64,000 nucleotides of DNA, taken from NCBI GenBank assembly GCA_032718475.1, contig JAUCBJ010005988.1, positions 14,567 to 78,566 on the forward strand. Reading direction: 5' to 3'. A program made the position numbers and the translations under genes. Shown here piece after piece: positions 38,940-64,000 of this stretch. This DNA comes from Nemertoderma westbladi (taxonomy: Eukaryota; Animalia; Xenacoelomorpha). Each line of letters opens with the position of its first letter. Within the stretch, counting starts at the first letter, position 1. The notes below the pieces were generated by a model that saw only the letters and a program-made list of their open reading frames with translations, did no database searches and was not told the origin of the DNA.

Positions 38940-39761
38940 TTAATCGCCATCTGAACTTAAGCAGAAATCTGAAAGTTCCGCATCCGGCTCCATACCAGTG
39001 TCATTAACAGCGTCCTCCTTACTACCTAATCTACTTGTCTCCTTGAGTTTTTTCTTGAGTTTATTATCCCGGGATCTAACCTTCTTCTTTCTCTCAATAA
39101 CATAGTCAGCATCATCGGAACCAACCTCTGGGAACTCCTCCATCAACTCTTCCCCAGCCAGTTTCCTTCTGTCTGTCTGAGTATTCTCGCGGTACTTGGA
39201 GTCCCGGAACCGACTATAGAAGGACGCCAATGGAGTCCCTTCCGCCTTAGTCTCCGTCTCCCATCGCTCTATGGCTACGGTATCATCGATACCGAAGGCG
39301 ACTTTACTACGCCGTTCCGATATAAATAATCCGTTCTCGTTTAGTTTATCAACAAGTTGTTTCAACGGTTTGCAGAAGTTCGCGACTTTACATTTCTTAA
39401 GGAACTTCTTAATTCTTATTATCGGAAGTATAATTAGTTCAGGGAAGGATATCCGATGGCTCTCTGTGTAGAAATAGTCCAGAAGAAGCTCGTAAATCTG
39501 ATCCATAACTCCTTCATAGAACCCCCGTTCCACCAGCTGTCCGGAACTAAACTTCACGATTACCTCGAAGTTGATCGGCTGGGCACTGGCCTTCTGGGCG
39601 CGGGTATTAAAGTCCGTCTGCTCGAGGCAATGAAGGACGAACTGGGCGGAAGGTATGAAAGTGCCGGTGTCCCGACCGAGTCGGTTGAGAAGACGGACGC
39701 AGTGGAAGCGTAAGGGGTAGAACCGAGGGCCCGAGGATAACTCAATGGTACCCGTTGTTAC
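38940..39761 (-). CDS. NOC2L: Nucleolar complex protein 2 homolog, exon 2 (273 aa + stop)
   Basis: RFYPLRFHCVRLL, FIPSAQFVL, KPINF-like QPINFEVIVK, ISFPELIILP, FLKKCKVANFCK, EGTPL are Noc2 family motifs; acceptor TTATTTGCAG| at 39762, phase 0; AATAAA on the minus strand at ~38845. Confidence 0.93.
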   Translation of the reverse strand, partial: VTTGTIELSSGPRFYPLRFHCVRLLNRLGRDTGTFIPSAQFVLHCLEQTDFNTRAQKASAQPINFEVIVKFSSGQLVERGFYEGVMDQIYELLLDYFYTESHRISFPELIILPIIRIKKFLKKCKVANFCKPLKQLVDKLNENGLFISERRSKVAFGIDDTVAIERWETETKAEGTPLASFYSRFRDSKYRENTQTDRRKLAGEELMEEFPEVGSDDADYVIERKKKVRSRDNKLKKKLKETSRLGSKEDAVNDTGMEPDAELSDFCLSSDGD

Positions 39762-39863
39762 CTGCAAATAATCAAACAATTTAAAATAAAAACAAGTTTA
39801 GATTGTAACTATTTACCGAGTATACCTAGTTCATTATTTTATTTAGTATAGTATTAGTAACCA

Positions 39864-41664
39864 GAGACCAGGGCCTCCAGCTCGCTTACCTGTACCAAAG
39901 GACAGACCAGGGCATCCAGCTCGCTTACCTGTACCAAAGGACAGACTAGGGCATCCAGCTCGCTTACCTGTACCAAAGGACAGACTAGGGCATCCAGCTC
40001 GCTTACCTGTATCAAAGGACAGACTAGGGCATCCAGCTCGCTTACCTGTACCAAAGGACAGACTAGGGCATCCAGCTCCAGCTCCCTTATCTGTACCAAA
40101 GGACAGACCGTGGCCTCCAGCTCGCTTACCTGTACCAAAGAACAGACCAGGGCCTCCAGCTCGCTTACATGTACCAAAGGACAGACCAGGGTCTCCAGCT
40201 CGCTCACCTGTACCAAAGGACAGGGACAGACCAGGGCATCCAGCTCCTTTACCTGTACCAAAGGACAGACCAGGGCATCCAGCTCGCTTACCTGTACCAA
40301 AGGACAGACCGGGGCCTCCGGTCGCTTACCTGTACCAAAGGAGAGACCGTGGCCTCCAGCTCGCTTACCTGTACCAAAGGACAGACCAGGGAATCCAGCT
40401 CGCTTACCTGTACCAAAGGACAGACCAGGGTCTCCAGCTCGCTTACCTGTACCAAAGGAGAAAGGACAGACCAGGGTCTCCAGCTCGCTTACCTGTACCA
40501 AAGGAGAAAGGACAGACTAGGGCCTCCAGCTCGCTGACTTGTACTAAAGGACAGACCAGGGTCTCCAGCTCACTTACCTGTACCAAAGGACAGACTGGGG
40601 CCTCCAGCTCGCTTACATGTACCAAAGGACAGACCAGGGTCTCCAGCTCCCTTACCTGTACCAAAGGACAGACCAGGGCATCCAGCTCGCTTACCTGTAC
40701 AAAAGGACAGACCGTGGCCTCCAGCTCGCTTACCTGTACCAAAGGACGGACCGGGGCCTCCAGCTCGCTTACCTGTACCAAAGGACAGACCGGGGCCTCC
40801 AGCTCGCTTACTTGTACCAAAGGAGAAAGGGCAGACCAGGGTCTCCAGCTCGCTTACCTGTACCAAAGGACAGACCAGGGCCTCCAGCTCGCTTACCTGT
40901 ACCAAAGGACGGACCGGGGCCTCCAGCTCGCTTACCTGTACCAAAGGACAGACCGGGGCCTCCAGCTCGCTTACTTGTACCAAAGGACAGACTAGGGCAT
41001 CCAGCTCGCTTACCTGTACCAAAGGACAGACCGGGGCCTCCACCTCGCTTACTTGTACCAAAGGACAGACCAGGGCATCCAGCTCGCTTACTTGTACCAA
41101 AGGACAGACCAGGGTCTCCAGCTCGCTTACCTGTACCAAAGGAGAAAGGACAGACCAGGGTCTCCAGCTCGCTTACCTGTACCAAAGGAGAAAGGACAGA
41201 CCAGGGTCTCCAGCTCGCTGACCTGTACCAAAGGACAGACCAGGGTCTCCAGCTCGCTTACCTGTACCAAAGGACAGACCAGGGCCTCCAGCTCCCTTAC
41301 CTGTACCAAAGGACAGACCGGGGCCTCCAGCTCGCTTACTTGTACCAAAGGGCAGACCAGGGCATCCAGCTCGCTTATCTGTACCAAAGGACAGACCGGG
41401 GCCTCCAGTTCGCTTACTTGTACCAAAGGACAGACCAGGGCATCCAGCTCGCTTACTTGTACCAAAGGACAGACCAGGGTCTCCAGCTCGCTTACCTGTA
41501 CCAAAGGAGAAAGGACAGACCAGGGTCTACAGCTCGCTTACCTGTACCAAAGGAGAAAGGACAGACTAGGGCCTCCAGCTCGCTGACCTGTACCAAAGTA
41601 GAAAGGACAGACTAGGGCCTCCAGCTCGCTTACCTGTACCAAAGGACAGATCAGGGCATCCAGA
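39864..41664 (-). repeat. 39-bp (some 46-bp) minisatellite made of the NOC2L exon-1 end plus its donor site, ~44 copies
   Basis: Minus-strand unit GTAAGCGAGCTGGAKGCCCTGGTCTGTCCTTTGGTACAG; 46-bp units carry extra TTTCTCC. Confidence 0.95.
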
Positions 41665-42809
41665 TCACGCCCTGAATTGCCCAACAGCACCCCAAAGAAC
41701 TGCAAACACCGCAGGAACTGCCAGTTACAGACAGCCTGGAGGTTCTCCTTGCGAGAGACTGTCATGGCGTTCCGAAGGTGGATAGCCAATTGCCGGATGT
41801 AGGTGAAGGAGAAGTGATAGGAGACCTGATTGTCCAACAGAAAGATCTCCACTAGAGATCGCTGTAAGAAAATGAGACGTTGCAATGAGTTCACCGATAC
41901 GAATCGGCTCTCCCTCACGAGCCGTAAGTACATCGACTTGGCCATCGCCTCTGTAAATTTAGTGGAGTTTAATTTCCTGAGCAGTCGGTTGATTGACAGA
42001 AAGGAGAGGAGTTGTATGAGAACGTCGTCTGATGTCGCCCAGACACGGACCAGACGGTTGAGAAGCACTCGAGACAGTCCGGGGAACTCGGAGCTGTATG
42101 ACGTCATCGCTAACAGATGACGTAACACCGGTACCGATACCGACTGGGTTAGTAACGTTAGAACGTCGGTTAGATAGCTCCTAACTCTAACCCGAAGGCG
42201 ACTCCATTGAGGGCCTTTCTTGGAGGTTGGACTCAATGAACCTATGACGTCACGCATACGGGACAAACAGAGGAGCACAATACGGTTGTGCACCTCGCTG
42301 CTCTCTATTCGCCAAGATGATTTATTATCTTCCGTTGATTCCGACTGCCTTACTGCAGCGCGAAACGCACCGCGTAACTTAAGGAAGAGATCCAGCGACG
42401 GATTCTCGCATTCCCATTGCTTTATCAACACCATAGTTACCGTTTGCTTCCTCCCTATCGGCTCCTCTGGTTCTTTGTCTCCATCATATCCACCCTTCTC
42501 CCCATCCGATTCGCTTTCATCTTCATTCTCCTCCACGGAGGAGTCACCCGAGTCTTCCGAGCCGCTAAACTGTAACAACTCGCCGTCGTTCTCCTTTAGA
42601 TATTCGTAGAACTCCGGATCCCGTTCCTTCAACGACTCTAGTTGGTCTCGATGTTTCTTCCTCTTCGGAACTATTTCGTCTGTTACATCGTCAACGTCTT
42701 CCGCATTATCGATCTCCATAGCAACGGGGACATCTTCGGCAAATGAAGCAAAAAGATTGTCAACAGATACATCGGCTAGTTTTCTATTGGTTACATTCGC
42801 CGTAGCCAT
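41634..42809 (-). CDS. NOC2L: Nucleolar complex protein 2 homolog, exon 1 (392 aa)
   Basis: HRDQLESLKERDPEFYEYLKEND.ELLQF and YHFSFTYIRQLAIHLRNAM...QAVCNWQF are Noc2 hallmarks; donor CAG|GTAAGC at 41633 joins in frame as ...LICPLVQ|VTTGTIEL... Confidence 0.93.
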
Positions 42810-44199: not shown

Positions 44200-47100
44200 T
44201 GCAGTAAGGTATGTGGTAGGTTCTACTGTTTATGAGAAAATGTTGGCTCTGGTTAATACGAGCTCTGACACCTCTTCACAAGGCCACTTTAATGCACTTA
44301 ATCAGGTTTGTAAGAAGTTTCAAATTCCCTTGAGCCAATCAATGCATTGCAGATGCTTTTGATGGTGCATCCAATATGAGTGCCGAGTACAATGGGCTAC
44401 AAGCTAAACTGAAAGATGTATCTCCAAACCACATCCACACATGGTGCTATTCACATGTGTTGAACCTCGTGATCACCGACAGCTGTTCTTCTCTGGAATG
44501 TGTTTCATTCTTTGGGTTGTTGCAAGCAGTCTATGTGTTATTCGCTGATAGTTACAAGCGTATGGCAGTTTGGGAGAAAACCTTGGAACAACAGTTGGGA
44601 GAAGGATGCATGCAAGCATGCAACGAATAATGTAGGCTGCAATGAAATTCGTCTGTCCCATTTATCCTCTTTATTTATCCACTCTCATCCAATATTTAAT
44701 CGTATTTCTATTTATTATTTATTTAGGCCCCCTTATTTATTTACTTTCAGTTTCGTAACCCACCAGTAGTAGTTGTGACCATTGTTGCGGCGGTAGAGCC
44801 CATTATCCTTTTGTTGCGGCTTTGCCCACTATGCGTGTTGTGGCTTTAAGCCCATTTTCCCTATAATGTCGCCACCGAACCCTTTCCCCATGACAGTAAT
44901 TAACCTTTTTCCAGTACGTATATTTAATTATTTTATTATTATTATAACGTCATATACTGTATTTTGTTTTAAATTATTCTTATCTTTAAGCATTTAATAT
45001 CCACGTACATACTGTATTTAGTAATAATCCTATCAGAACCCTCTCAATTAGCGATTCATGTTGCGCCGACGGCCAAACTCAAATTTCTAAAATGCTAAAA
45101 TGATATTTATTTATAGTTATTTTTTGTGCATTTTGGGCTATTCTGTTACCATTTTGATCACTCACCTTTTCCAGGGATTTGAATGAGGGCAGACCTGAAA
45201 TTTTCGGCACCCTCCCGGTGTCTAGGAAGTTTGTACATGGGCAGTTTCACATAGATAAAATGAATTCAATTACCAATTATTCTGCCCTTACCACGCATAC
45301 AACCATTTTATTGTGCAGTTCTTGGTTTGGTTATTCATTCAATCCCGCATATCGTTTCATTCCATCAGAAGGGCCACCTTGACGGGATTGGACTACCTTC
45401 AATATCATTTATCATTTCATCAGAAGGGCCGCCTTAATTGGATTGGATTACCTGCAAACAAACTCATGTATTATTACATTCATTCATTCTTTGTGGGGTT
45501 TTTTGAATGACCGATCCAATCACTGTACTTAGAATGTAACTCAGCGTAGTATGAGCATTCACTATATCCAATATAGATGCATTGCCCCCGATTTAGCAGT
45601 TGACACAGTGAAGCTAACCCCATGTATAGGCTCCCCAGCCATCCTATTGGCTATAACCGAAATTATTAATTCATCAATATCATTCAGATGCCAGTGTTTG
45701 AACTTTGACCGTTAATTATCGAGTAATATATCGGGAAACCCCCTTTAATGCACAAATTACTACAGTATAAAAAAGCTCAGAATCTTTATTAAGGGATCCT
45801 TTTCACTGATAAATTTGGTCGGTTGTTAGGCAGCGTGTTTCACCGCTCAATCGAGTTCCCCCTTGCCCCTTATTCAAACCTTAATTTATTGTTTTACTTT
45901 TACCATTACCGGTTCACCTATTTTTCATTTTCTATACTTTACCAAAACAGACGAATTTTTTCCCAACCTTTTGATAATACCCCTATTTAACAGTTTATTA
46001 ACGCAGTTTTCAAACAATTCTATTTAATTACCGGTAAATTGTAAATTATATAATAATATTTTATCGAATTATTGAAAATAATGAACTATCGCCCTACAAT
46101 AATTGATAATAAATAAAACTGAACTTAATCACACCCAAGTCATTTTCAACCCTAGTATGCTCGATTGTGCGCGTAATACAAAACACCGCCATACTGCAAT
46201 ATTCCAACCCGCCGCACCAAAATTTTAACGCAGTCAGCCGCACAGTAGCCTGGCCGCTACAACAATTACCAAATCTTTGAAAAACCCGCTGGCGAACCAA
46301 AAACAATGCCACAGTGAAGATTTATGGTACTTGGGATCACTCTGCTGGTGATCAGAGTAGTACATGCTTAAAGTATCCTGTACTAGTATTATGTTTAGAC
46401 GAAATTTCAAAATCTGATCATTTTAAAGCCATTCACCGATCAGAAGCGAATTCTTTGTGTGAAAACTTAAAATGGCAAGCGATGAACCTTTTAAAGATCC
46501 AAAGGATGAGTTCAAAGCAAGGGTCTACAATGTTGTTATAGATACGGCTATTAATCAAATTGATAACCGCTTTTCCGAACATGGAAAATTGTATCAGAGC
46601 TTAGAACTCTTAGATCCATATGGTCCCTACTTATGGTCCCTACTCAAACAACCCACGATTGCATACAAACCAATAACTGATGTCGATGAATGTGATGACG
46701 ATATATGTGTGGAACATCCTGGGAAATGCCTTGGCGACTGCCTCGTCGGTTGTTTAAAGGTTATGGTCGAATATAATTTTTTCTCCTCGGCATATGAGAC
46801 TCTCTGCATGGTATACAGAACAGTTCTAACTCTACCCATGACCCAGGTAACGTGAGACAAATATATATATACATCATTTGTCTTAATAGAATTCACCAAT
46901 AATAATAATAAATACAGTATGTAAAATTTACAAATAGAATTATAGAAAAATAGAGTTGTTATAAAATATTGAAACTGAAACGAATTACTGAAGCTGAGTT
47001 GAGTTGCCTACATAATTACCTGTATTCTTTTTTAGGTAATTTTATTAATTGTAATAACTAAATTTTATTTTATCAGGTTTGCTGTGAACGAGTCTTCTCT

Positions 47101-48559: not shown

Positions 48560-48754
48560 CTATAAGTCAGGTTCGTTCTGTTGCTTGACTTTCTTAAATG
48601 GCTGTTGCCCCTCAGGCAGTTGAACAGTATCTTTGATCCATTTTATATAGTCGGTAGACCCTTGATGTATTTCTGTGCTGATCACTTCCGGTACCGCGTA
48701 ACCATGGTTTCGCTCTACGAATTCAGTCACTTGTGGAACAATCTCTGTTCGCGT
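48560..48754 (-). CDS. CUTA: CutA homolog, last exon (64 aa + stop; absent from the ORF track)
   Basis: Acceptor TTTTGTGTTTCCCTAG| then TRTEIVPQVTEFVERNHGYAVPEVISTEIHQGSTDYIKWIKDTV…*, matching the CutA HPYEVPEI…G…Y..W motif; phase 0 agrees with the donor at 60074. Confidence 0.9.
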   Translation of the reverse strand, partial: TRTEIVPQVTEFVERNHGYAVPEVISTEIHQGSTDYIKWIKDTVQLPEGQQPFKKVKQQNEPDL

Positions 48755-49963
48755 CTAGGGAAACACAAAACATTACATTAAAGAAAGATATGAGTAGTCA
48801 CTATAGTTACACTTACTGACATAAGTTTTGTATGGTAAATAAATAATTAGGGATGTGCCGGATTGACAATTTTCAAACCGGCCAGGCCGGACCCGGATTT
48901 GTAAAAAAAATACAGCCGGAATTCCGGCTAAAGCCGGATTTTTATTATATATCACCATAACCATTTACACTATAACCTACGCCGATTTTATATTTGACAT
49001 AATGGATTGATTTTATATTGTTAAATGTTAAATATGAAAAATGAAAATGAAATAAAAAAGTGCAATTGGAAATATAGAACGAAGTACCGTAATAATAGCT
49101 GTAGTTTTTTATACTCTCTGAGTTAAATTGGAATTACAAAAGTTTCTAAATAGCCTGTCCAATATATATAAACTGGTCATTTACGTGGTTGGCTTTATCT
49201 CAATTTATAACAGTACCTAGACCTAAATCAAGTGATAAACGCTTGCGCGCTGAGACAATACAATAATTATTGATTATTTATGATTAGTATATATATGAGC
49301 GAGCATACGTGTACTATTATAATCATTAATCAGTGCTATTGAGGTTGAGCCCAACCAAATACAAATATTATCGGCAAAAAGTAGTCAGTCAGCTCAGTCA
49401 GGGTTTTTTTTTTCTAAATTATGTTAGTGAAATCAAAAATTAAAAATAGTGATTTCTACCGGGAACCTTAGGATTCAGTGCAACCTGGGTGAAAGAAAAC
49501 GGTTATAGCTTAGAATTTAATAAAAATGCATTTGCATGCCCGTAAATAATGAAGGGTGATTGTTTTTTTTTTATTTAAAAGCCGTTTAAGTTCTATATTT
49601 ACCGGTATGCCTTTCGAGGAGTTTCTTTTTGGTTACGGTAACAATTAATTATGACTGTATGATAAAATAAAACTAACAATAATCTGCCCTGCCTACAGAT
49701 ACATGTTTTTGAAGTAAAAAGTTAATTTAGCATCGTTCATAATTTGAATGAAATTTCCCTCCAGTTCTTTATGTAACAAGAAAAAGAAACAGAAGCATTT
49801 AATTGAATTTCAACCACAAAAACTTTCAATGCAGTTAATTCAAAATTATATTATTTTTTTCGTTGGCCCTTTCAAGTGTGACCATCAGGGCCGGATTTAG
49901 AGTGGTGGGAGGCATGGGGCCGGGTCAGTGGTGGGTGGCCTGGGTCGGGTCAGTGGTGGGGGG

Positions 49964-50504
49964 TGTTCTGGCGGTCAGACATTCACACTCGGCTGCTCGG
50001 AGGCCGATATTTAGGTACCGGCCTGTTACAGTATTTATTACAACTCGCCTGCCACTCAGTTCACGTTTACTAGTTTGTAATTATATACCGTAGTTGTCAT
50101 CCCCATTGCAAGTAATAACAAAGAATTAGAATGATTAATTATTCTTTACCAGTATATTTAATAAGTAAATCAAGTAAGACGATTATGCAGAAATACTGAA
50201 ATATTACCAACTCTGCACGTGTCTCTCTCCAGTTATATCTAAAAAGCGAATGGCTACCTACTACCGGTATCATCCACAAAAACAGGCGGTTTTAGTTCTT
50301 ACTTCTAATTGGCCGTTGCCACACCAACAAGCAAAGATACAATTTGAATCTCCTTATTTCCCGCCCAACTAAAGTTCAGTAGTACGCTATATAAATCAAT
50401 TGCAACTAAGGTACAAATATGTACAGTACAAATACAAACAGTAAATTGCTACATACTGTACAACAGATCAAATGTTGTATTGCGCAAACATATCAATTGC
50501 GACA
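49964..50504 (-). repeat. 3' LTR (541 bp)
   Basis: TGTTCTGGCG…TTGCGACA; near-identical to 57251..57791 (two mismatches noticed by eye). Confidence 0.97.
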
Positions 50505-50530
50505 TAGCCGGCCCAAAAAACCCTTTGCTA

Positions 50531-51937
50531 TCACAAAGGTTTTTTTATAGATTTTGTCCCACCTGCCTGTTCGGAGGATTCTTCCAACAAACAGATTTTT
50601 ACTGCTGGTCGAGTATACTCCTTGCCTTTCATACGTACTTGTACTGCACGGACTATGACATCAGATCCTGGGAAGGTCTCAATCACTCGTCCCAGTGGCC
50701 ATTGACCACGGGGAGTATTAGGCTCAATTACAAGTACAAGATCACCCTTTTGTAAATTTCTACGGTCTTTAAGCCAGATCCGCCGCTCTATTAACGAAGG
50801 AACGTATTCCCGCATCCAGCGTCTCCAAAACTGATCTATAAGTGATTGTGTCGCCCTCCAACGACTTCTAGAAGTCATTTCAGATGCATCGAATACATCA
50901 GGGGGCGTATTGGGATTACCTCTACCAAGAAGGATATGGTTAGGTGTAATCGCCTCTACGTCATCTGGATCGACACTCACATGAGTGAGTGGCCGTCCAT
51001 TAAGTATATTTTCTACATCTGCCAACACAGACAATAGAACCTCATCTGACACACACTGTAAGCCTAAGACTGCCTTTATAGCCCTTTTTGCCGACTGTAC
51101 AGCACGCTCCCACACACCTCCAAAATGTGGTGCCGATGGTGGTGATTTCCTCCATTGAATTCCTTTCTTAGCCAATGAGTCGTGTATCTCTTCCTGATTC
51201 ATATTTTCAAACGCCTCGCGAAGTTCCTTTTCACCAGCAACAAAGTTGGAACCATTGTCGCTATACACTACTGCAGGGGCACCACGACGCGCAATAAGTC
51301 TACGGAAAGCTAAAAGAAATGACTCAGTATCCATTGAGTACACCATCTCAAGGTGAATACTCCTAGTAGTCAAACATGTTGCCAAGAGAACCCATCTCTT
51401 CAAAGTTCGACGTAGGTACTTGACGTACAAAGGGCCAAAAAAATCCAATCCCACATTCACAAAGGGAAAGGTAGTTGGTCCTAAACGGGTTTGGGGAAGG
51501 GCAGCCATCATGGGTGGAGAGGGCTTGGCCCTACGTTTCTTACAATAACCACATCTATAGATGATTTTCTTAACTAACATTCTTAACTTTGGAATCCAGA
51601 AATGCTGTCGCAGTTCATTTAATGTTTGACTTTCACCTTGGTGAAAGACACATGAGTGAATGTCAGTAACAATGAGTTGTGTAAAGTATGCCTCATTTGG
51701 TAAAATAATAGGGTGACGGGCGGTAATTGGTAATTCTGCCTTCCCTATCCGACCTCCAACCAACAATACTCCAGCTTCACTTAATATAGGATGTAAACAT
51801 AACAAAGAGCTGTTTGTGTCCAATGGATTGTTATTCTCAAGAGCTTTAATATCCGATGAATAATAGTACCTTTGGACAACCTTAATGAGGTAATCTAACG
51901 ACAGCCTGAGCTCAGATACAGATAAGTATGATAACAC
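50531..51937 (-). CDS. BEL/Pao integrase
   Basis: H..H…C..C zinc finger, VGLDFFGP, YSDNGSNF, PHFGGVWER, FWRRWMREY, WPLGRV; frameshifted relative to the upstream segment. Confidence 0.93.
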   Translation of the reverse strand: MLSYLSVSELRLSLDYLIKVVQRYYYSSDIKALENNNPLDTNSSLLCLHPILSEAGVLLVGGRIGKAELPITARHPIILPNEAYFTQLIVTDIHSCVFHQGESQTLNELRQHFWIPKLRMLVKKIIYRCGYCKKRRAKPSPPMMAALPQTRLGPTTFPFVNVGLDFFGPLYVKYLRRTLKRWVLLATCLTTRSIHLEMVYSMDTESFLLAFRRLIARRGAPAVVYSDNGSNFVAGEKELREAFENMNQEEIHDSLAKKGIQWRKSPPSAPHFGGVWERAVQSAKRAIKAVLGLQCVSDEVLLSVLADVENILNGRPLTHVSVDPDDVEAITPNHILLGRGNPNTPPDVFDASEMTSRSRWRATQSLIDQFWRRWMREYVPSLIERRIWLKDRRNLQKGDLVLVIEPNTPRGQWPLGRVIETFPGSDVIVRAVQVRMKGKEYTRPAVKICLLEESSEQAGGTKSIKKPL

Positions 51938-52187
51938 TTATCTTCCTACGGCAATTTTCAACAAATCGTCGAACCCAGGCAGTCACACGTTGGAGTTTCC
52001 ATAATTTTGAGTATTTGGATATTAGGTCCATAAACAAATTAAGATTACTAACATCTTTCACAACTGTAAAGACATTCTTCACTTCATACACCTTATCTGT
52101 AGGGTCAGGTTCTTTAATTACAATATCTGAGTTTGGCCACTCATTCTCAGAAAGACGAAGGAAGTGAGGGCCCAGAAACCAAATATG

Positions 52188-55100
52188 CTAATTGTCAATC
52201 TGTGATGGCAAAAGACCACGACTACAATGATCTGCAGGGTTGTCTGAAGTTGAAACATGCAACCATTGCTGTTGAGTAGTAGTTTCCAAGATCTCCCCCA
52301 CTCTATGTGCGACAAAGGTCTGAAAGCAACATATTTTGGACTTGATCCACTGTAGGGCAGTAGTGGAATCACTCCAAAAGAAACACCTTCCAATAACTAA
52401 CCTCAGTTGTAACTTCACAAACTCAGCAAGCCGTGATCCAATGACTGCTCCTTGAAGCTCCTTCCTAGGAACACTCAAGAAGCGTACAGGCGCTACCCTA
52501 CACTTTGACATGATAAAAGAAACTGTGATGCTATCATCATTGTGTATAATGCGTAAATACGCCACAGCTCCAAACCCTTTCTCCGAAGCATCACAAAAGA
52601 CATGGAGTTGAATATCTTTACTTGGAGACATATTTGAACCAAATAAACATCGGGGAATGGAGATTCGATTTACATTTGGCAAATCTACAAGCCAATCAGC
52701 CCAGCGTTTAGAGATGTCAACTGGAAGAGGATCATCCCAAGATATAGAACAACGCCATGTATCCTGCAGAATAATCTTGGCTAAGAGAAGAACTGGTGTC
52801 AGAAATCCCAAAGGGTCAAATATTGAAGCAATTTGGCGCAACATATTGCGCTTAGTAAGAGCCCCAGATTCTATGTCAACCACAAACAGAAAACAGTCTG
52901 TGGAACAATTCCATTTTACTCCCAAGGCCCTGTCTATAGGTAAGTCATCCAAGTCAAGATTTAATGATGGTTTTGCCAAACTTTCAGACGGAACAGCTGA
53001 AAGAGCAGTCTTTGAGTTTGACATCCATTGTCCAAGTTCAAAACCTCCTAAAGCAATTAAGTCAGTCATGTCTTTCATAATATCTATAGCTTCCTGCTCA
53101 GTATCAAATGAGTCTAGATAGTTATCTACATAGAAGCTTCCAGAGACCTTGGCAGCAGCTACAGGGAATTTACTAGAATTATCCTCTGCTGTCCGGTGCA
53201 AGATATACCTACATGACGCTGGAGATGAGATGACACCAAAGTTTTCAACGACCATTTTGTATGTACTGGGGGGACCCTTTCGATCCAAACCTCCCCAAAG
53301 AAAACGTTGTACATCTTGGTCACATCGCTGAAGTCTAACTTGGTGGAACATAGCTGTAATGTCCCCAGAAATTGCTATTTTCCCTTCACGTAAGCGAAGT
53401 AAAAGACCAACAAGGCTTACTAAGAAAACAGGACCACGATACAGACAATCATTGAGATATCTACCATTATGCCGAGAAGATGCATCAAATACAACGCGTA
53501 CATTGCCAGGCTTGTGAGGATGTAACACAGGATGATATGGAAGATACCATGTCCTACCTTCAGGACCAACATCATCAGAATCAATCTTCACTGCAAAGCC
53601 TTTCTCAACATAACCTTCAATACGCTTCTCATATGCCTTTCCAAGGTCTGGGTTATGAGCCAATCGCTTCTCAGTTGACATCAACCGCCTCAAAGCCATA
53701 TTGTAGTTATCCGGGAGCTTAGCCTCAGTGGAGTGCCATGGAAGGCCTGTTTGATAGCGATTGCCTATGTTTATGGTTTCCCTATTAAGTATCTCAAGAG
53801 TCTTCATATCAGCCTCTGACATTGGCAAATTCTTACAAGGACGAACTCCAAATGAGTCAGTTCTCCAAAAGTCTGCAACAAGTTCATGAAGATACTGGTC
53901 TGGGTCAGGCATAAGTTCGCGATGTGCACTACAATGTGGTTGTCCATTTGAAATATTTACATGCATAACATGAGGAGCACTATCTGTCTTCAAGGGTGAT
54001 GTAGAACCTGGATATGTGAATGAAGACACACATGTCCAACCAAAGTTTGTCAACACTGCCTGTGGAGTATCTGGGGGACCAGAACGGTAATCAAGTTGGC
54101 GTATAACATCAAACACATCAGCGCCAAGGAGAATTTCAACCTTGGATGTATCAATAACTGGTAGTTCTAAGTCTTCAAGATGCTTCCAGTTATGTTTCAG
54201 GTTTGGCCAATCTAAGTACTGTTGAGGAATATTCAATCCAGGATAAACCCAAGCTTCAGGAATTGAAAACTCTACATCACTATCAATAGCTGAAACACTA
54301 AAGTTAACAGTTGAAGATGGTATTCTGCGGCCCTTACACCCAATTGTCCCCAGACGTAAGTAACCCTTCTTACCCTTCATAGCAAGGGCACCAGCAAGTC
54401 TCACACTTATCAAAGAAGTTTCAGCCCCATCATCTAACAAAGCATATGTCAGCACTGACCTACCTGAAGGGGTGGTCATTCGTAGAGGAACATACTGTAG
54501 TGTAACAACCTTCAAACCACCATGTAATACTAAACTGTTTACATGTTTATGTTTGGTGTTTCGTTTCCATGACGACCTATCACTAGAAAACATCTTAGGG
54601 GCACCATGCAAAAGCATATGGTGCCGTTTCTTACAACCTGCAACATGACAAGGATCTTTGACAGAGCACTCTGATACCCTATGTCCATGACGTAAACAAC
54701 CAAAACAAAGATTATTATCTTTAACTAGATTAGGGCGCTCATCAAGGGTTTTAGACTTAAACTCATTACAGTTAGGCACTGAGTGTGAACCATTACAAAT
54801 ACAACAATTATGTTCACTGGACCTACCTTGATTGTTATTGAAATGGTTGACTCTACTGCTTGAACCTGATTTACTTAACTTGGACTTATCGGTATCCTTA
54901 GAGGTTACTGAGGTTGTACAAATTGTTGGAGTAAACTCAGGTGGTGGTGGTCTTAGTTTTTCCGTATTAACCTTATTGGATGTTAATGCAGGTGACTTAC
55001 CATGACTTGACTTGTCAACATTTGGCACTGACTTCACCATACGACCTGCTAACACCTTGTTATTAACCCACACACTGATGTCTTTCATAGATGGAACTTC

Positions 55101-55604
55101 TGGTCTCATTTTAATTACCACATTCCCCCAAGATTCTCTTAATTTTGGAGGCAATTTCTGAACTAAATTAGACACATTTGTACAAGCATACAGATCTGAG
55201 GTATAACCACATTTTTCTAACACAGCCACCACACTGTTAAGTTTCAACGAAAATGTTTTTAATGACTCAGTGTCACCATCCCTAACAGATGGAATACGGT
55301 TTATTTGGTTGACACACTCACTGCCAACCAAATGACGGTCCCCATATATGCGTCGGAGCTCTTTCAAAGCCTCAACATATAAATCGGGATCATCCAGCAA
55401 GCCGGCTATACTATCTCGGACATCTGCAGAAAGTAGGTTTCTAAGTAAGGCCAATCGGATCGGAGTGGAGGAGACTTGTTCATGAACTAAAGCATGAAAT
55501 GTGGAAATGAATCCTGGCCATTTGGTGGGTGACCCATCAAATGGCTCAATTTTTATTTGAGACAAATATTGGGGAATCAGTGGTGTACCCACTTGAGGTC
55601 CCAA
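52188..55604 (-). CDS. BEL/Pao Gag-protease-RT-RNase H polyprotein, ending at a premature TAG
   Basis: IEPFDGSPTKWPGFISTF (DUF1759-like), Cys/His knuckles, YALLDDGA protease, YLPYHPV…RVVFDAS, FYVDNYL RT, LHVFCDASEKGFGAVAYLR RNase H; the frame continues after the TAG with HIWFLGPHFL…EWP. Confidence 0.93.
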   Translation of the reverse strand: MGPQVGTPLIPQYLSQIKIEPFDGSPTKWPGFISTFHALVHEQVSSTPIRLALLRNLLSADVRDSIAGLLDDPDLYVEALKELRRIYGDRHLVGSECVNQINRIPSVRDGDTESLKTFSLKLNSVVAVLEKCGYTSDLYACTNVSNLVQKLPPKLRESWGNVVIKMRPEVPSMKDISVWVNNKVLAGRMVKSVPNVDKSSHGKSPALTSNKVNTEKLRPPPPEFTPTICTTSVTSKDTDKSKLSKSGSSSRVNHFNNNQGRSSEHNCCICNGSHSVPNCNEFKSKTLDERPNLVKDNNLCFGCLRHGHRVSECSVKDPCHVAGCKKRHHMLLHGAPKMFSSDRSSWKRNTKHKHVNSLVLHGGLKVVTLQYVPLRMTTPSGRSVLTYALLDDGAETSLISVRLAGALAMKGKKGYLRLGTIGCKGRRIPSSTVNFSVSAIDSDVEFSIPEAWVYPGLNIPQQYLDWPNLKHNWKHLEDLELPVIDTSKVEILLGADVFDVIRQLDYRSGPPDTPQAVLTNFGWTCVSSFTYPGSTSPLKTDSAPHVMHVNISNGQPHCSAHRELMPDPDQYLHELVADFWRTDSFGVRPCKNLPMSEADMKTLEILNRETINIGNRYQTGLPWHSTEAKLPDNYNMALRRLMSTEKRLAHNPDLGKAYEKRIEGYVEKGFAVKIDSDDVGPEGRTWYLPYHPVLHPHKPGNVRVVFDASSRHNGRYLNDCLYRGPVFLVSLVGLLLRLREGKIAISGDITAMFHQVRLQRCDQDVQRFLWGGLDRKGPPSTYKMVVENFGVISSPASCRYILHRTAEDNSSKFPVAAAKVSGSFYVDNYLDSFDTEQEAIDIMKDMTDLIALGGFELGQWMSNSKTALSAVPSESLAKPSLNLDLDDLPIDRALGVKWNCSTDCFLFVVDIESGALTKRNMLRQIASIFDPLGFLTPVLLLAKIILQDTWRCSISWDDPLPVDISKRWADWLVDLPNVNRISIPRCLFGSNMSPSKDIQLHVFCDASEKGFGAVAYLRIIHNDDSITVSFIMSKCRVAPVRFLSVPRKELQGAVIGSRLAEFVKLQLRLVIGRCFFWSDSTTALQWIKSKICCFQTFVAHRVGEILETTTQQQWLHVSTSDNPADHCSRGLLPSQIDN

Positions 55605-55711
55605 ATTAAGAGTAGGTGGATTAACACCTTGGAGGTCATTGACCCCATCAATCCAATTATCATGGAATAATTTTGGAGTGCCTGAAGCATTACCTTGAAA
55701 TTTAATTTCAT

Positions 55712-57175
55712 TTACATTTGGTCTGTTTCGTACCTCAAAGGCTGGTCTATTTTGTAACCCAATGGCCGGCCCATTTTGTAACCCAATGGCCGGCCCATTT
55801 TGTAACCCAATGCTTGTAACTGCAAATACCCACCCCCCATATTTTGAGGTGTCTCAAAATCTATCAGAGGACTAACAGGCAGCTGGGATGGGTGAAATGT
55901 TGGTGCAGTGACACACCACGAGACTGTTGGTACAGTAACACATTGCACAGAATTAATATTACTACAGCTATTTCTATAATAACTGGGGCTAGTACCTGAA
56001 AATGGTACATAGCTAGTTGTAGAGACACGTGCATATTCATTTAAAAAACTACTAGGCCTATTATTAGTGAATATTTGACTCTGGCCTGGGTTATTGTCAA
56101 TAACTGATACATTTAAATTATTATGCACATTATTTAAACCTTTATCACCCTCTACTATTATATCATACGACTGCTGGCCATGTATGCCAGCGTCGCCAGG
56201 TCTAGATTCAGCCACAGGATTTACTTCCATATCACTACCATTGAAGTCAACTAGACGCGTGCTCAGCTCTCGAATTCCATCCGCACAATCATCTTCTTCC
56301 GCTAAGATAACTGAAAGATTAGACTGTTCAACCCTGTCTTCAAGGCGACGGATATCTCGTGTTTCTGTAATACGTTGCTGGGTTTCACGTAAATTATCTT
56401 CCCTTCCCCGTAATTCCCGTTCAAACCCAATACGACGCCGAGTTTGGCGGAGGATGAGTTCATTCTCCCTAAGCCGATGTCTTGTGTCCATGACATCGCT
56501 CAAGGCCGTAGAACCAACCCTAGAACCCAATCCAACCTTGGACATCACGGAGGAAGAAGTATCATTTCGTCTAGAATTAAAATATTCATTTGCCTGTTGG
56601 TTGCAGGAATCAACTGCGTCGTTTAGAACATCCAGCCAATGCTGAAGGTCGGGTCGTTCAGCAATATCCACACCTAGACACCTAATGAATGACATATGGG
56701 CCGCTATACATTCGCCTTGGAGCTCCCGCAGTGAGCCCATCAAAGTGCGAATACTCGTCCGACTTCCACGTCCATCGACTAGACCATTTATTCTATTTAA
56801 AGTCTTCGTAAATTTCTGCTTTAGAACCATACGAACAGTTTTTGCAACCTGCGGATCAACTTCATTTGGATTGGGCCCATCAATATCATCTCCGGTACCG
56901 GTATCCTCCAATAGGCCTACATCAGAAACGTCATCTTCACCAGACAAATCATGTGCCACGCTACCGGACCGGGCTGTTCCTGCCCCAAATCTCAGAGCCA
57001 TACCAGCGGCAGTAGACACTGTACCCATAGGCACACCACCGCTGGCAACAGACGACATGGTAGGTCTTCTACCGGTTCCCGTTTTACTGGAACCGCCAGG
57101 CCGTTTCCCGAGGCCAACAGAATTGGTACCGGTAGACATATCAGACATCAGAATGCCTACATTTAAAACCAACAA
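55712..57175 (-). CDS. BEL element Gag N-terminal ORF (coiled-coil, low complexity), out of frame with the downstream polyprotein
   Basis: 487-aa ORF directly after the PBS; ends just after a short tandem repeat at ~55750-55815. Confidence 0.7.
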   Translation of the reverse strand: MLVLNVGILMSDMSTGTNSVGLGKRPGGSSKTGTGRRPTMSSVASGGVPMGTVSTAAGMALRFGAGTARSGSVAHDLSGEDDVSDVGLLEDTGTGDDIDGPNPNEVDPQVAKTVRMVLKQKFTKTLNRINGLVDGRGSRTSIRTLMGSLRELQGECIAAHMSFIRCLGVDIAERPDLQHWLDVLNDAVDSCNQQANEYFNSRRNDTSSSVMSKVGLGSRVGSTALSDVMDTRHRLRENELILRQTRRRIGFERELRGREDNLRETQQRITETRDIRRLEDRVEQSNLSVILAEEDDCADGIRELSTRLVDFNGSDMEVNPVAESRPGDAGIHGQQSYDIIVEGDKGLNNVHNNLNVSVIDNNPGQSQIFTNNRPSSFLNEYARVSTTSYVPFSGTSPSYYRNSCSNINSVQCVTVPTVSWCVTAPTFHPSQLPVSPLIDFETPQNMGGGYLQLQALGYKMGRPLGYKMGRPLGYKIDQPLRYETDQM

Positions 57176-57232
57176 CCGAACCGAGTGGTAGGAATTCCGA
57201 AACGAGAGGATAAACCATCAACGGATTTATGT

Positions 57233-57250
57233 TTCCCGGCCAATGCACCA
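57233..57250 (-). promoter_or_regulatory. Primer binding site complementary to the tRNA-Gly 3' end
   Basis: Minus strand TGGTGCATTGGCCGGGAA; plus strand TTCCCGGCCAATGCACCA is the 3' 18 nt of metazoan tRNA-Gly. Confidence 0.9.
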
Positions 57251-57791
57251 TGTTCTGGCGGTCAGACATTCACACTCGGCTGCTCGGAGGCCGATATTTA
57301 GGTACCGGCCTGTTACAGTATTTATTACAACTCGCCTGCCACTCAGTTCACGTTTACTAGTTTGTAATTATATACCGTAGTTGTCATCCCCATTGCAAGT
57401 AATAACAAAGAAATAGAATGATTAATTATTCTTTACCAGTATATTTAATAAGTAAATCAAGTAAGACGATTATGCAGAAATACTGAAATATTACCAACTC
57501 TGCACGTGTCTCTCTCCAGTTATATCTAAAAAGCGAATGGCTACCTACTACCGGTATCATCCACAAAAACAGGCGGTTTTAGTTCTTACTTCTAATTGGC
57601 CGTTGCCACACCAACAAGCAAAGATACAATTTGAATCTCCTTATTTCCCGCCCAACTAAAGTTCAGTAGTACGCTATATAAATCAATTGCAACTAAGGTA
57701 CAAATATGTACTGTACAAATACAAACAGTAAATTGCTACATACTGTACAACAGATCAAATGTTGTATTGCGCAAACATATCAATTGCGACA
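57251..57791 (-). repeat. 5' LTR (541 bp)
   Basis: Adjacent to the PBS; near-identical to 49964..50504. Confidence 0.97.
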
Positions 57792-58680
57792 GGGGGCCTG
57801 GGCCGGGTCAGTGGTGGGGGCCGGGTCAGTGGTGGGGGCCTGGGGCCGGGTCAGTGGTGTGGGCCTGGGTCCGGGTCAGTGGTGGGGGCCTGGGGCGGGT
57901 CAGTGGTGGGGGACCTGGGGCCGGGTCAGTGGTGGGGGGCCTGGGGCCGGGTCAGTGGTGGGGGCCTGGGGCCGGGTCAGTGGTGGGGGGCCTGGGCCGG
58001 GTCAGTGGTGGGGGGCCTGGGGCCGGGTCAGTGGTGGGGGCCTGGGGCCGGGTCAGTGGTGGGGGCCTGGGGCCGGGTCAGTGGTGGGGGCCTGGGGCCG
58101 GTTCAGTGGTGGGGGCCTGGGTCTGGGTCAGTGGTGGGGGTTTGGGTCTGGGTCAGTGGTGGGGGCCTGGGGCCGGGTCAGTGGTGGGGGGTCTGGGGCC
58201 GGGTCAGTGGTGGGGGGCCTGGGGCCGGGTCAGTGGTGGGGGGCCTGGGTCGGGTCAGTGGTGGGGGGCCTGGGTCTGGTCAGTGGTGGGGGTCTGGGGC
58301 CGGGTCAGTGGTGGGGGGCCTGGGCCGGGTCAGTGGTGGGGGCCTGGGGCCGGGTCAGTGGTGGGGGCCTGGGTCTGGGTCAGTGGTGGGGGCCTGGGGC
58401 CGGGTCAGTGGTGGGGGGTCTGGGGCCGGGTCAGTGGTGGGGGGCCTGGGGCCGGGTCAGTGGTGGGGGGCCTGGGTCGGGTCAGTGGTGGGGGGCCTGG
58501 GTCGGGTCAGTGGTGGGGGGTCTGGGGCTGGGTCAGTGGTGGGGGGCCTGGGGCCGGGTCAGTGGTGGGGGGCCTGGGTCGGGTCAGTGGTGGGGGGCCT
58601 GGGTCGGGTCAGTGGTGGGGGGCCTGGGTCGGGTCAGTGGTGGGGGCCTGGGTCCGGGTCAGTGGTGGGGGCCTGGGTCT
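57792..58680. repeat. ~25-bp G-rich minisatellite (GTGGTGGGGGCCTGGGGCCGGGTCA), ~35 copies; 2-3 further units lie left of the LTR element (49900-49963)
   Basis: Seen directly. Confidence 0.95.
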
Positions 58681-58846
58681 GATCTCTACTGTATGGGGTT
58701 TGCACATACACGGTACCGAGCACTTCTCACAGACTATACTATACTGAAAGACACATTTTCTCTCGTTTTCATTACCCTAATCTTTTCAATCTATTTATTG
58801 CAAATACCTTTCAAAGAAACCTGAATGTAGATTGTAAATATATTAG

Positions 58847-59136
58847 TAGGGATGTGAGTCAGGAAATGTTTGGAAATTTCTGGAAATTTCATATACATTT
58901 TACCAGAAATTTCTTATACATTTTCCGGAAATTTCCTATTTTATTAATTATTTATTTAGCACATTCTGAAAACATATAGTAAAACACAAGTAGAGTAAAC
59001 ACTAGAAATAAGGGATTCCTGCTTAGATGCGTTTAGGTAGTTCGTTGTCTTGTCCCTAGTGGTCGTAACTACGGATGAAATGTACTTTTCCTGAAATTTC
59101 CTTGAAAAACATATTTTAGGAAAACTCACATCCCTA
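58847..59136. mobile_element. Inner hAT MITE 3 (290 bp)
   Basis: TIRs TAGGGATGTGAGT … ACTCACATCCCTA; 8-bp TSD TATATTAG on both sides; GGAAATTTC subterminal repeats. Confidence 0.92.
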
Positions 59137-60074
59137 TATATTAGACGGGAAATTAGACATTTGAAGCATGTTCCTGTTTATATCAGTATAAAAACAAATA
59201 ATCAAAAAATGCAACAATCAAAGTTAAAAAAATATAATTTCATGAGCTACAAAAATATTTACTGTTTTTTAACACTAACTTTTTGTTTTTAGTTTTTCAT
59301 ATATATTGGGAAAAATAAGTGGCAAAATTCAAAATTACCTGTTCGGTTTCAGTTCGATTCCTGTTCGGTTCGTCTATAGTTCGGTCGATCCCTATATTGT
59401 GGGATCGTGGTGGGGGGCCCCCTGTGGTGGGGGGCCTGGGGCCTCGGCCCCTCCTCCCCCACCCCCCCCCCCCCCCCCCCTAAATACGGCCCTGGTGACC
59501 ATCGCCAATGAGATGGAGTATTCCTTCCCAAAATATGGCTTTTTAGTTTACCAAAGCTGTATTAAATACAGTAGTAGGAGTACAATGAAAAAATTGAAAT
59601 CTTGCAAGAACCCGATTTTTTTAAAAATCCTGCAGGAGCCGGATTTTTTCTCAAAATCCGGCCGGAATTCCGGTCCGGCCGGATATCCGGCACACCCCTA
59701 TAAATAATCATAAACACAATATTCTTGAATAACGTACAATAAATATAATAATAATGAAACAAAAGTATGAGTTTTGGGGAGAGTTATAAATTCTTTGAAT
59801 AATCATTTTAAAAAAGTTTAATATTTTGACAAAAATACCCTATGCGCCTTTATTACAAAAATTATATTGCCAAAAAACAAGTATAATATTAAATAAATAG
59901 GCGTTCGGCATTTATTCAAGGTTACAATAATGATTTCCAATTATTCAACATTATTAAAGAGTTTAGAAAATAAATATTATATTCTCGGGAAAAAAAATAA
60001 TTTGTTTGTTGCCATCTATAATCGATATTTAGCAGTTCCTCTCACTACCTTTAACTATTCGTCAGGTCTCTTAC

Positions 60075-60344
60075 CTTAATCATCAGTAACATTTCTGAAT
60101 CGTTCTCAATCTTCCCTTCCCACTCATAAATAGAAACAACCCCCGGTATGATATTAACACACGCCGCTAACTTCTCCTTCACCAAACCGTCAGCCAATAA
60201 CCTCCCAACATCCATCGAAGGTACAGTAACGAACACAACAGAAGCTTGGGTGGACGACATCTGTGTATCACCACGACAAGAAGATATAAACACAACAAAT
60301 AAAGCTAATATTGTACCAGGACTGTTTACATTTAGAGAGATCAT
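60075..60344 (-). CDS. CUTA: CutA homolog, upstream exon (ATG at 60344 or 60260; a further 5' exon is possible)
   Basis: SVVFVTVPS...LVKEKLAACVNIIPGVVSIYEWEGKIENDSEMLLMIK then AAG|GTAAGA; hydrophobic N-terminal extension. Confidence 0.9.
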
Positions 60345-61286
60345 TAGCACTACAAGTGTAAGTGCAATAGTAATACAGGCCCGTATCGCATTAAAGATAC
60401 AATCTGATTATCGAACAGTTTATATGATAAACCCACGAAGATTTAGAATTACAGTTTACAAAAATTAATAACTGAACATCAAGTACAAACCTTCTTAACT
60501 GTGTTAGACAACCAAATTGTGTTCCCAGTCACTAATGAGTTTCTCAAGAAAATACTACGTTTGGCGGGAAAAAAACTTCGAACAATAAAGTTTGTCATAC
60601 CGCAATCTCCATAACTGTACAAAACTCAAGTATTTAATTAAAGGTTACAGTTTAAAACTGAAACTAATTATACCTGCAGGCTGTGGAAATTATATTTGGC
60701 CTACAGAAAAAGTACAGAGAGAAATAAAGTATAGAGAGAAATAAAGTATATTGGGAGCAAAGAGAAGCAGAACCTCATGGAAATCAAGAGAAAATGACCC
60801 GTAATAAATAAAATAATCAACATATTATAATGTATGTTTTGCTTGATTTGTTAATAATACGATTATAAAAATTATATATCATTATAAATATTGAAAAAAT
60901 TGATTGTAAAACCAAATATATAAATAACGAAAAGACCATCTGAATAAACGAACATTTATCAAAAGATCAGTACAGTATGCAAATAAGCAGTTCTGTGTCA
61001 AAATTAACATTATACACATTAAGTAATACAAATCAAATAAGAATGTCATTAAATTATGAAATTTAAAAATTATAAATTGAAATAGTATACAAATTGCACC
61101 AAGATCGAATATAATGTCATATATTTGTCAATTAAATTAAATATTTATAAATAAAGATTAAAATAATTAAATATGATATAATATAGGTATCGAGGAAGTT
61201 AAATTCCAATAAATTAATAACACAAAACGAATATTAAATTAAAAAGCATAAATTATAATATTCCGATTTATTCAAGTTATTTTATA

Positions 61287-62435: not shown

Positions 62436-62619
62436 TGTCGGAATGTGTAACAGAATAACCGAATGATTAACAACAGTTACCGGTACCGGTAGCTGGGTAG
62501 TTATTATTCTGTTATTATCAGCCTGTCAGCCGAAACAACTGCAGAACTGTAGAAATTAATTAAAAACAAATTAATTGTACAATAGGGATGTAGGGCCTAA
62601 CTAAATAATATTAACGATA

Positions 62620-63179: not shown

Positions 63180-63500
63180 TTCTGGAACCGATCACACAGA
63201 CCATTGGAGTTATTCAAGGTGACATGCTACTGAGCTATACCCTCTCATATTCATCTTGTTTGTTTCCGACCTCCCTGCAGTTATTATAGCAACTGGATGC
63301 CTTATATTCATGTATGCCGACGATCTAGTTATTTGTAGAAATTCCATTGCGCAAGTTCAGATTGGACTCGATGCATTACTTGACTACTGCAGAGACCACG
63401 ACCTAACAGTCAATAGCTCAAAAATAAAAGTTGTTAAATTCAGACGTGGAGGTCGCTTATCACGGGACGATGTTCTGCATTACGATGGACAACTGTTATT
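63180..63500 (+). mobile_element. LINE (L2/CR1-like) reverse transcriptase fragment
   Basis: GVIQGDML (frameshift) LFVSDL…FMYADDLV…LDYC…LTVNSSKIKVVKF. Confidence 0.85.
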
Positions 63501-64000
63501 TCATTATTTTATAACTCGATGCAATCTATTTACTTATTTATTTTACTTTTATCAGGTCACATTTTAGCGAGCAATTTTAACATAATTTTAGTAATCGCAT
63601 TAATTCCAATATGTTTGGTTAATATAATTAAATTCGAAAGTATTGATGTATTTCTCAAGTAGAGTTCAGAATAACAAAGAATTACACTGCTAGAATGTAG
63701 TAAATGCATTAAACACATTAAATAAAAAATCAATCCTAAGATAAGATAATTATTGACAATTACATACTGTATTTACACGAATTACAAACCTACCTCTACC
63801 CCCCCCCCCCCCCCCCCCCCTCCCTTAAGTGATAGAAGAATGTAGAAAGCTGTTACCTGGCTGTTGGTCAGCTGGTACCGGTATCTAGGATTTACATAGC
63901 GACGGGGTATCTATGTAAAATTATAAATGCTGATAGGGTGACTGTATGGGATGTATGTAGGGATAGGTGGAGCGGTGGAGGTGGCCCGGCATGAAATATT

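What the first reader, a model, noticed from the sequence alone, without database searches (positions are those of the whole stretch)
39762..41664. NOC2L intron built from ~44 tandem copies of its own exon end and 5' splice site: a candidate recursive-splicing / micro-intron stack
Seen: the 39-bp unit is the last ~30 nt of exon 1 (CTGGATGCCCTGATCTGTCCTTTGGTACAG) plus the first 9 nt of the intron (GTAAGCGAG). Most units therefore start GTAAG and end pyrimidines+CAG, repeating CAG|GTAAG every 39-46 nt across ~1.8 kb; only ~100 bp of unique intron with the real acceptor remains. Known: YAG|GT is the signature of recursive (ratchet) splice sites, and NOC2 is a conserved ribosome-biogenesis factor; both exons here are intact. 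Inference: the spliceosome must pick 1 of ~40 near-identical donors or remove the intron stepwise as abutting micro-introns.
Basis: partly seen in the sequence, partly recalled or inferred. Interest (0 to 1): 0.85.

Follow-up and report, generated by a model that had tools for sequence, protein, structure and literature searches.

The report
Splice-donor minisatellite in NOC2L intron
The last 30 bases of an exon of an animal's NOC2L gene, splice signal included, are copied 43 times into the next intron, yet a likely RNA assembly joins the two exons through the first signal, so this is likely a tolerated example of a repeat type already known from lancelets ("mirages") and human genes.

Summary
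The 1,872-nt NOC2L intron is a 39/46-bp minisatellite made of the exon-1 end plus its donor (44 boundaries, 31 of 43 internal ones AG|GT), followed by a 102-nt AT-rich tail. DNA contigs from a second sample also carry the array, with unit variants the window lacks, so it is not an assembly artefact. In an RNA-like run (X4) one 415-nt contig joins exon 1's own end exactly to exon 2, so the first donor is used.

This architecture is known: human F7, CBS and 6-16 arrays, and amphioxus "mirages". CAG|GT is a by-product of copying a consensus donor, and the pyrimidines come from a conserved (Y/C)-P-L motif. Splice columns vary as much as other columns, and 10 of 43 boundaries have lost the AG. Unit-by-unit removal is implausible, since the units are shorter than the human donor-to-branch minimum.

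Occasional multi-unit recursive jumps cannot be excluded: they give the same mRNA, and no nascent RNA was available. The scan has noted this kind before on other DNA (53 notes, at least 19 genomes), including far larger arrays in this genome (unchecked). Verdict: a new member of a known kind, low interest.

The parts
41634..42809 (-). NOC2L exon 1 coding part (392 aa); its last 30 nt are the template copy of the repeat
   Evidence: Pfam Noc2 2-113; X4 contig covers its end
41628..41636 (-). Authentic 5' splice site, CAG|GTAAGC (cut between 41634 and 41633)
   Evidence: X4 415-nt contig: 119 nt of exon 1 plus 296 nt of exon 2
39865..41663 (-). Minisatellite: exon-1 copy plus 43 units of 38-46 nt and a partial last unit; 56% GC; 39-mers 92% identical on average
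   Evidence: unit contigs in DNA runs X1, X2, X3
41496..41633 (-). First three units, 46 nt each; in this allele they make every downstream donor give a premature stop (413 or 423 aa instead of 665)
40572..40580 (-). Boundary 27: a pseudo-donor with a perfect consensus 9-mer, better than the authentic site
39762..39863 (-). Unique AT-rich intron tail (102 nt, 22.5% GC) with the authentic 3' splice site
   Evidence: present in DNA contigs of X1 and X2
38940..39761 (-). NOC2L exon 2 coding part (273 aa plus stop); it begins GTAAC, so the real acceptor also reads CAG|GT
   Evidence: (Pfam Noc2 114-296)

Best explanation
This is a minisatellite built from the NOC2L exon-1 end and its donor, likely a tolerated by-product, and the intron is likely removed from the first donor to the real acceptor with the 43 copies left unused. 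Shown: the array's anatomy; its presence in two samples, with differing unit variants; an exact exon 1-exon 2 join through the first donor in an RNA-like run. Inferred: a 39-nt stretch across the donor of an ordinary short AT-rich intron was duplicated and then amplified by slippage or unequal exchange, in a genome where arrays fill 37% of this window. Inferred by analogy with human F7: the most upstream donor wins by first-come, exon-defined recognition. Inferred: stray use of a later donor gives a premature stop in this allele and would likely be degraded, so the array costs little.
For: The same X4 contig (415 nt, depth 4386.8) lies on 41630-41752 and on 39466-39764. 119 + 296 = 415 gives the exact 41634/39761 join. 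Its loose end carries a 20-mer found once in exon 1 and never in the intron. The spliced protein aligns without a gap across residues 386-400 in 77 of 77 homologs that cover the region (79 given); P389 is 77/77, L390 70/77, and position 388 is Y in 74/77, so the pyrimidine run is coding. Splice-signal columns vary in 4 of 9 against 14 of 30 for other columns, p=1.0. G columns vary most, 10 of 14 against 8 of 25, p=0.024 (40 of 43 units tallied, units not independent). The acceptor G is lost in 10 of 43. DNA runs X2 and X3 (sample S2) hold piles of unit contigs, and their exon-1 contigs stop 13 nt into the array. X3 shows three unit variants that occur 0 times in the window, one with GT changed to TT. 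Literature: only the most upstream donor is used in F7, even against stronger pseudo-sites (PMC1557585); mirages do not disturb splicing (PMC3087553, PMC3902484).
Against: A direct junction in mature RNA is also the end product of recursive splicing, so one-step removal is not shown. The units' pyrimidine share at -20..-4 (0.65, or 0.82 after most 46-mers) is no lower than the real acceptor's (0.59, though that one is all T), so internal CAGs could work as acceptors. Alternative-donor products would carry premature stops and could be invisible in steady-state RNA. There is only one RNA-like run. It is labelled 'DNA?' and consists of contigs, and no DNA of its sample (S3) shows which array allele it carries. 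In human CBS and 6-16, two pseudo-donors are used besides the real one (PMC1557585, introduction).
Confidence: 0.8

Rival explanations
1. The array is removed recursively in a few multi-unit jumps for a substantial share of transcripts: donor 1 splices to an internal CAG several units away, which regenerates CAG|GTAAG, and splicing goes on to the real acceptor.
For: 31 of 43 internal boundaries are AG|GT, with pyrimidine shares equal to or above the real acceptor's. The result would match the X4 junction. Recursive splicing occurs over a range of intron sizes and may be stochastic in smaller introns (PMC10156609, passages).
Against: The AG is freely lost (10 of 43). Only 1 YTRAY branch motif lies in the array, a few nt from an AG. 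The array is 56% GC against 22.5% in the real acceptor region. Fly recursive segments average 9.1 kb and nearly all exceed 1 kb (PMC6110457, passages). This intron is 1.9 kb, and an inferred 11.3-kb CutA intron in the same window has no such array at its donor.
Confidence: 0.12
2. The array is a regulatory device: later donors feed nonsense-mediated decay, or single 39-nt units are included as in-frame 13-residue cassette exons.
For: Every later donor gives a premature stop in this allele. 24 of 42 internal units are flanked by AG and GT, in frame and stop-free. Human CBS and 6-16 use proximal pseudo-donors (PMC1557585).
Against: The joined X4 contig runs unbroken for 415 nt across the junction with no unit in it. 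The junction sits in a gap-free conserved stretch (77 of 77). A frame-breaking first unit has a 9 in 43 chance anyway. The signals are not extra-conserved.
Confidence: 0.05
3. The intron is a stack of abutting 39-46-nt micro-introns removed one by one.
For: CAG|GT recurs at unit spacing.
Against: The only adenosines at a usable distance from the unit's AG lie 8 and 14 nt after the donor. The human minimal donor-to-branchpoint distance is 46 nt (PMC11291888, abstract; this organism's minimum is unknown). 12 of 43 boundaries lack AG or GT, and 2 have AG but no GT, which would be dead ends.
Confidence: 0.02
4. The array is an assembly artefact.
For: X1, the best DNA holder, may be the source of the window and is not independent.
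Against: Sample S2 (X2, X3; another study) has the same array edges and deep unit contigs. 32 distinct unit sequences among 43.
Confidence: 0.01

Closest known systems
Human F7 intron 7 37-bp VNTR, and the 6-16 (IFI6), CBS intron 13, lamin B2 and PDGF arrays cited with it (Borensztajn et al. 2006, PMC1557585; parts 1-2 of 6 of the text read)
   Same: The first monomer spans the exon-intron boundary, so the donor is repeated down the intron. The most upstream donor is used even when a stronger pseudo-site follows. Unit size is similar (37 vs 39 bp).
   Different: 43 pseudo-donors here, against 4-8 in F7, 15-20 repeats in CBS and 25 pseudo-sites in 6-16. The unit is mostly exon (30 of 39 nt; F7 has 4 of 37), so it brings along pyrimidines plus CAG and also looks like an acceptor. 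The array fills about 95% of the intron. Scanning was shown by mutagenesis in F7 and is only inferred here.
Amphioxus 'mirage' minisatellites (Adh3, globins BflGb6 and BflGb9, troponin C, PGBD5; PMC3087553 six passages, PMC3902484 one passage; the Adh3 paper itself not seen)
   Same: Tandem copies of an exon-intron boundary in an invertebrate. Many but not all units keep splice signals. mRNA is normal, alleles differ, and edge copies differ from the homogenised core.
   Different: More copies than the globin cases (3-6), in another animal lineage (no relative above 51% identity). Length instability was not measured here.
Recursive (ratchet) splice sites of flies and humans (PMC6110457, PMC10156609; passages)
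   Same: YAG|GT juxtaposition inside an intron.
   Different: Known segments are mostly over 1 kb (mean 9.1 kb in flies) and are defined by intermediates or lariats. Here the sites are 39-46 nt apart, arise by duplication, and are not preferentially kept.
Intron gain by tandem genomic duplication of an AGGT site (review PMC3443670, seven passages)
   Same: The mRNA junction reads CAG|GTAA, and the intron is mostly copies of flanking exon.
   Different: The working acceptor lies in a 102-nt AT-rich tail with no similarity to either exon flank (154 and 145 of 500 shuffles score as well). This points to a pre-existing intron. Intron age could not be determined.

Membership tests
Mirage / splice-donor minisatellite (F7, Adh3 type) | Head-to-tail repeat whose first unit spans an exon-intron boundary | tested here: met
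   exon end matches the unit consensus at 28 of 30
Mirage / splice-donor minisatellite (F7, Adh3 type) | Many but not all units keep splice signals | tested here: met
   GT at 42 of 44; AG at 33 of 43
Mirage / splice-donor minisatellite (F7, Adh3 type) | Normal mRNA made through the authentic (outermost) site | tested here: met
   One RNA-like run, X4: exact 41634/39761 join; minor isoforms not excluded
Mirage / splice-donor minisatellite (F7, Adh3 type) | Allelic variation and length instability | tested here: inconclusive
   X3 has three unit variants absent from the window. Copy number cannot be read from contig depth: X2 and X3 are one sample and give about 42x and 154x.
Recursive splice site | YAG|GT that regenerates a donor | tested here: met
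   31 of 43 internal boundaries, expected from copying any CAG|GT donor
Recursive splice site | Functional 3' splice site (pyrimidine tract and branch point) | tested here: inconclusive
   Pyrimidine share 0.65-0.82 vs 0.59 at the real acceptor; 1 YTRAY in the array; the real acceptor has no clear-cut branch motif either
Recursive splice site | Segments long enough to splice, typically over 1 kb in long introns | tested here: not met
   Units 38-46 nt, intron 1.9 kb, against PMC6110457 and PMC11291888; multi-unit jumps would be long enough
Recursive splice site | Selective maintenance of the site | tested here: not met
   4 of 9 signal columns vary vs 14 of 30 others; AG lost in 10 of 43
Recursive splice site | Intermediates, sawtooth coverage or internal lariats in nascent RNA | not testable with these tools
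   Only contigs were listed, no raw or nascent RNA reads
Intron gained by tandem genomic duplication | Both splice sites derive from duplicated exon sequence | tested here: not met
   The acceptor tail is unrelated to the exon flanks
Intron gained by tandem genomic duplication | Intron absent in close relatives | tested here: inconclusive
   80 of 80 metagenome NOC2 loci are uninterrupted here, but they are distant and were ranked by score, which favours transcripts and intron-poor genes

The most novel reading that the evidence does not exclude
Because each unit carries both a donor and a pyrimidine-CAG acceptor, this repeat has turned an ordinary ~100-nt intron into one that the spliceosome removes recursively, in multi-unit jumps between self-made CAG|GT sites. 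That would be recursive splicing born directly from a minisatellite, varying between individuals with the array allele.
Probability: 0.12. Interest if true: 0.6.

Novelty: new member of a known kind. Interest (0 to 1): 0.2.

Why it matters
As it stands, it is one more example that first-come donor choice tolerates dozens of identical decoys, here in an essential ribosome-biogenesis gene of an invertebrate. At 1.9 kb it is a PCR-sized, natural test bed for 5' splice-site scanning outside mammals. If nascent RNA showed jumps between the copies, it would give a concrete origin for recursive splice sites.

Tried and rejected

No run is on record as RNA ('no RNA holder listed'). X4 is read as RNA-like from its exon-only cover, its depth in the thousands and its joined contig.

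No X4 contig lay on 41588-41629, and depth on 41632-41719 equals the one joined contig exactly, although contigs down to depth 2.7 were laid nearby. Contigs show presence, not absence, so this is not counted as evidence against minor isoforms.

Contig depth as copy number was rejected: unit-to-unique ratios are about 45, 42 and 154 for X1, X2 and X3.

RNA accessibility does not explain donor choice: the real donor ranks 14th of 44.

Frame guard by the first 46-nt units is not significant, since 9 of 43 units break frame.

A deficit of change at second codon positions (2 of 13 vs 16 of 26 columns) was considered as a sign of coding selection and set aside: those columns are mostly A/T, G columns vary most, and unit 3 holds an in-frame stop.

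Intron age: 80 of 80 fetched NOC2 loci (the best 80 of 400) lack an intron here, but the sample is biased and uninformative.

Other arrays in the window: 132 ORFs (45 aa or more, mostly outside arrays) at 1-38.9 kb gave one Pfam hit, below its cut-off. None of those arrays could be tied to an exon edge.

The host could not be placed beyond a divergent animal.

A paper search for the exact phrase 'mirage minisatellite' gave 0; looser terms gave 2 papers. A six-term search for genome-wide surveys listed 3 papers, none about invertebrates by title. No search was made for this particular locus.

Full report
Observation. The - strand carries NOC2L: exon 1 CDS 42809-41634 (392 aa), a phase-0 GT-AG intron 41633-39762 (1,872 nt) and exon 2 39761-38940. 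Pfam Noc2 matches positions 2-113 in exon 1 and 114-296 in exon 2. The joined protein has no gap across residues 386-400 in 77 of 77 homologs covering it, of 79 given. TRF finds a 39-bp array, 44.4 copies, at 39865-41663. The unit is the last 30 nt of exon 1 (28 of 30 identical to the consensus) plus 9 nt of donor. There are 44 boundaries and 43 full units (32 x 39, 8 x 46, 2 x 45, 1 x 38; 32 distinct). GT is intact at 42 of 44, AG at 33 of 43 internal boundaries and both at 31 of 43. 24 of 43 repeat the real 9-mer, and boundary 27 is a perfect consensus. A junction motif gives 43 matches against 0 in 100 shuffles. A 102-nt tail of 22.5% GC holds the real acceptor; the array is 56% GC.

Is it real? 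Five runs from three studies hold exon 1 or part of it. X1 may be the window's source. X2 and X3 (sample S2, another study) have exon-1 contigs that stop at 41621, 13 nt into the array, as X1's does. They also have many short unit contigs, with summed depth up to 1,083 and 2,857 against 25.8 and 18.5 on unique sequence. X1 and X2 run through the intron tail to the array's other edge. X3 shows three unit variants that occur 0 times in the window, one with GT changed to TT. The array is genuine and differs between individuals in sequence. Copy number cannot be read from these depths.

How is it spliced? X4 (sample S3) is labelled 'DNA?' but covers only the exon side at depth in the thousands, and it shares SNPs with X2 and X3, so I read it as RNA of the same species. 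One 415-nt contig of depth 4386.8 lies on 39466-39764 (record 117-415) and on 41630-41752 (record 1-123). That is 119 nt of exon 1 plus 296 nt of exon 2, the exact 41634/39761 join; the 7-nt overlap is the CAG and GTAA shared by both ends. Its loose end holds a 20-mer present once in exon 1 and never in the intron, so the first donor was used. There are three limits: it is one run of contigs; S3's array allele is unseen; and recursive removal would give the same product.

Do the copies act as recursive sites? The CAG|GT is the ordinary donor consensus (MAG/guragu, PMC1557585), so any tandem copy of this donor makes it, and the real acceptor also reads CAG|GT. The pyrimidines before it encode the conserved (Y/C)-P-L motif (P 77/77, L 70/77, Y 74/77 in homologs). 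In 40 of the 43 units (the 38- and 45-mers dropped), 4 of 9 splice-signal columns vary against 14 of 30 others (p=1.0), while G columns vary most (10 of 14 vs 8 of 25, p=0.024; units are not independent). Two AG-destroying variants have spread to 10 of 43 boundaries. For unit-by-unit removal, the only suitably placed adenosines lie 8 and 14 nt after the donor, whereas 46 nt is the minimal productive donor-to-branchpoint length reported in human (PMC11291888, abstract; this species' limit is unknown). Fly recursive segments average 9.1 kb and nearly all exceed 1 kb (PMC6110457, 12 of 34 passages). Against my reading: the units' pyrimidine share (0.65-0.82) equals or exceeds the real acceptor's (0.59), and stochastic recursion in smaller human introns is reported (PMC10156609, 12 of 26 passages). 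Multi-unit jumps therefore stay open.

Consequences of mis-choice. The first three units are 46 nt, so donor 2 gives 413 aa and donors 3-44 give 423 aa instead of 665. Such RNA would likely be degraded and could be missed in X4. A frame-breaking first unit has a 9 in 43 chance, so this is no sign of design. 24 of 42 internal units could be in-frame, stop-free cassettes; the joined contig holds none. Folding does not single out the real donor (14th of 44).

Mechanism. Most likely a short AT-rich intron had 39 nt across its donor duplicated and amplified. Arrays cover 37% of this window, and runs of unit types recur along the array. The spliceosome takes the most upstream donor, as shown by mutagenesis for F7. 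Intron gain by duplication of the CAG|GTAA site was considered: the tail resembles neither exon flank, and the 80 of 80 uninterrupted homologous loci are too distant and biased to date the intron.

Comparison. Human F7 intron 7 and the 6-16, CBS, lamin B2 and PDGF arrays have the same design (PMC1557585, parts 1-2 of 6 read). So do the amphioxus 'mirages' (PMC3087553, six passages; PMC3902484, one passage; the Adh3 paper itself not seen). This case has more copies than those human arrays and an exon-heavy unit that doubles as an acceptor look-alike. Supplements of these papers were not consulted. Earlier scan notes list 53 similar findings in at least 19 genomes, and in this genome arrays of about 100 to 2,100 copies in CstF-77, PRPF8, TFCP2, NF-kB, beta-catenin and a nuclear receptor. 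These are unchecked leads, not support; the word 'mirage' came to me from them, and I checked it in the papers. None covers this locus.

Verdict. Observation confirmed, interpretation partly supported. New member of a known kind; interest 0.2. Recursion in multi-unit jumps has probability about 0.12 and would deserve about 0.6.

Noticed in passing
window 48563-60407 (-): A CutA gene split by an inferred 11,320-nt intron (48755-60074; Pfam CutA1 2-59 and 57-98). It has a plain donor and an AT-rich acceptor, with no array at either end.
   Followed up: partly
window 50348-58677 (-): A Pao/BEL-type LTR retroelement inside the CutA intron (Peptidase_A17, RVT_1, rve, DUF1759, DUF5641). Its reading frames are interrupted. 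The same sequence opens ORFs at 50348 and 57635 (likely LTRs), and a 25-bp array lies next to the second.
   Followed up: no
window 1-38500: About a dozen unrelated minisatellite arrays (units 8-68 bp, up to 4 kb); 17 arrays cover 37% of the window. No Pfam hit above cut-off among 132 ORFs tested in this stretch.
   Followed up: partly
window 61287-62525 (-): A single-ORF peroxisomal sarcosine oxidase (PIPOX)-like gene, at most 44% identical to listed homologs. With the one-intron NOC2L coding region it suggests an intron-poor, divergent animal.
   Followed up: partly
window 41651 (-), exon 1 end: The exon copy has an A 18 nt before the junction, where all 40 tallied units have G. It completes a YTRAY-like motif only in the exon copy and serves as a marker of first-donor use.
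   Followed up: yes
window 44334-46855 (+) and 63223-63567 (+): Fragments resembling a hAT-type transposase (by eye, no Pfam hit) and a reverse-transcriptase fragment (RVT_1).
   Followed up: no
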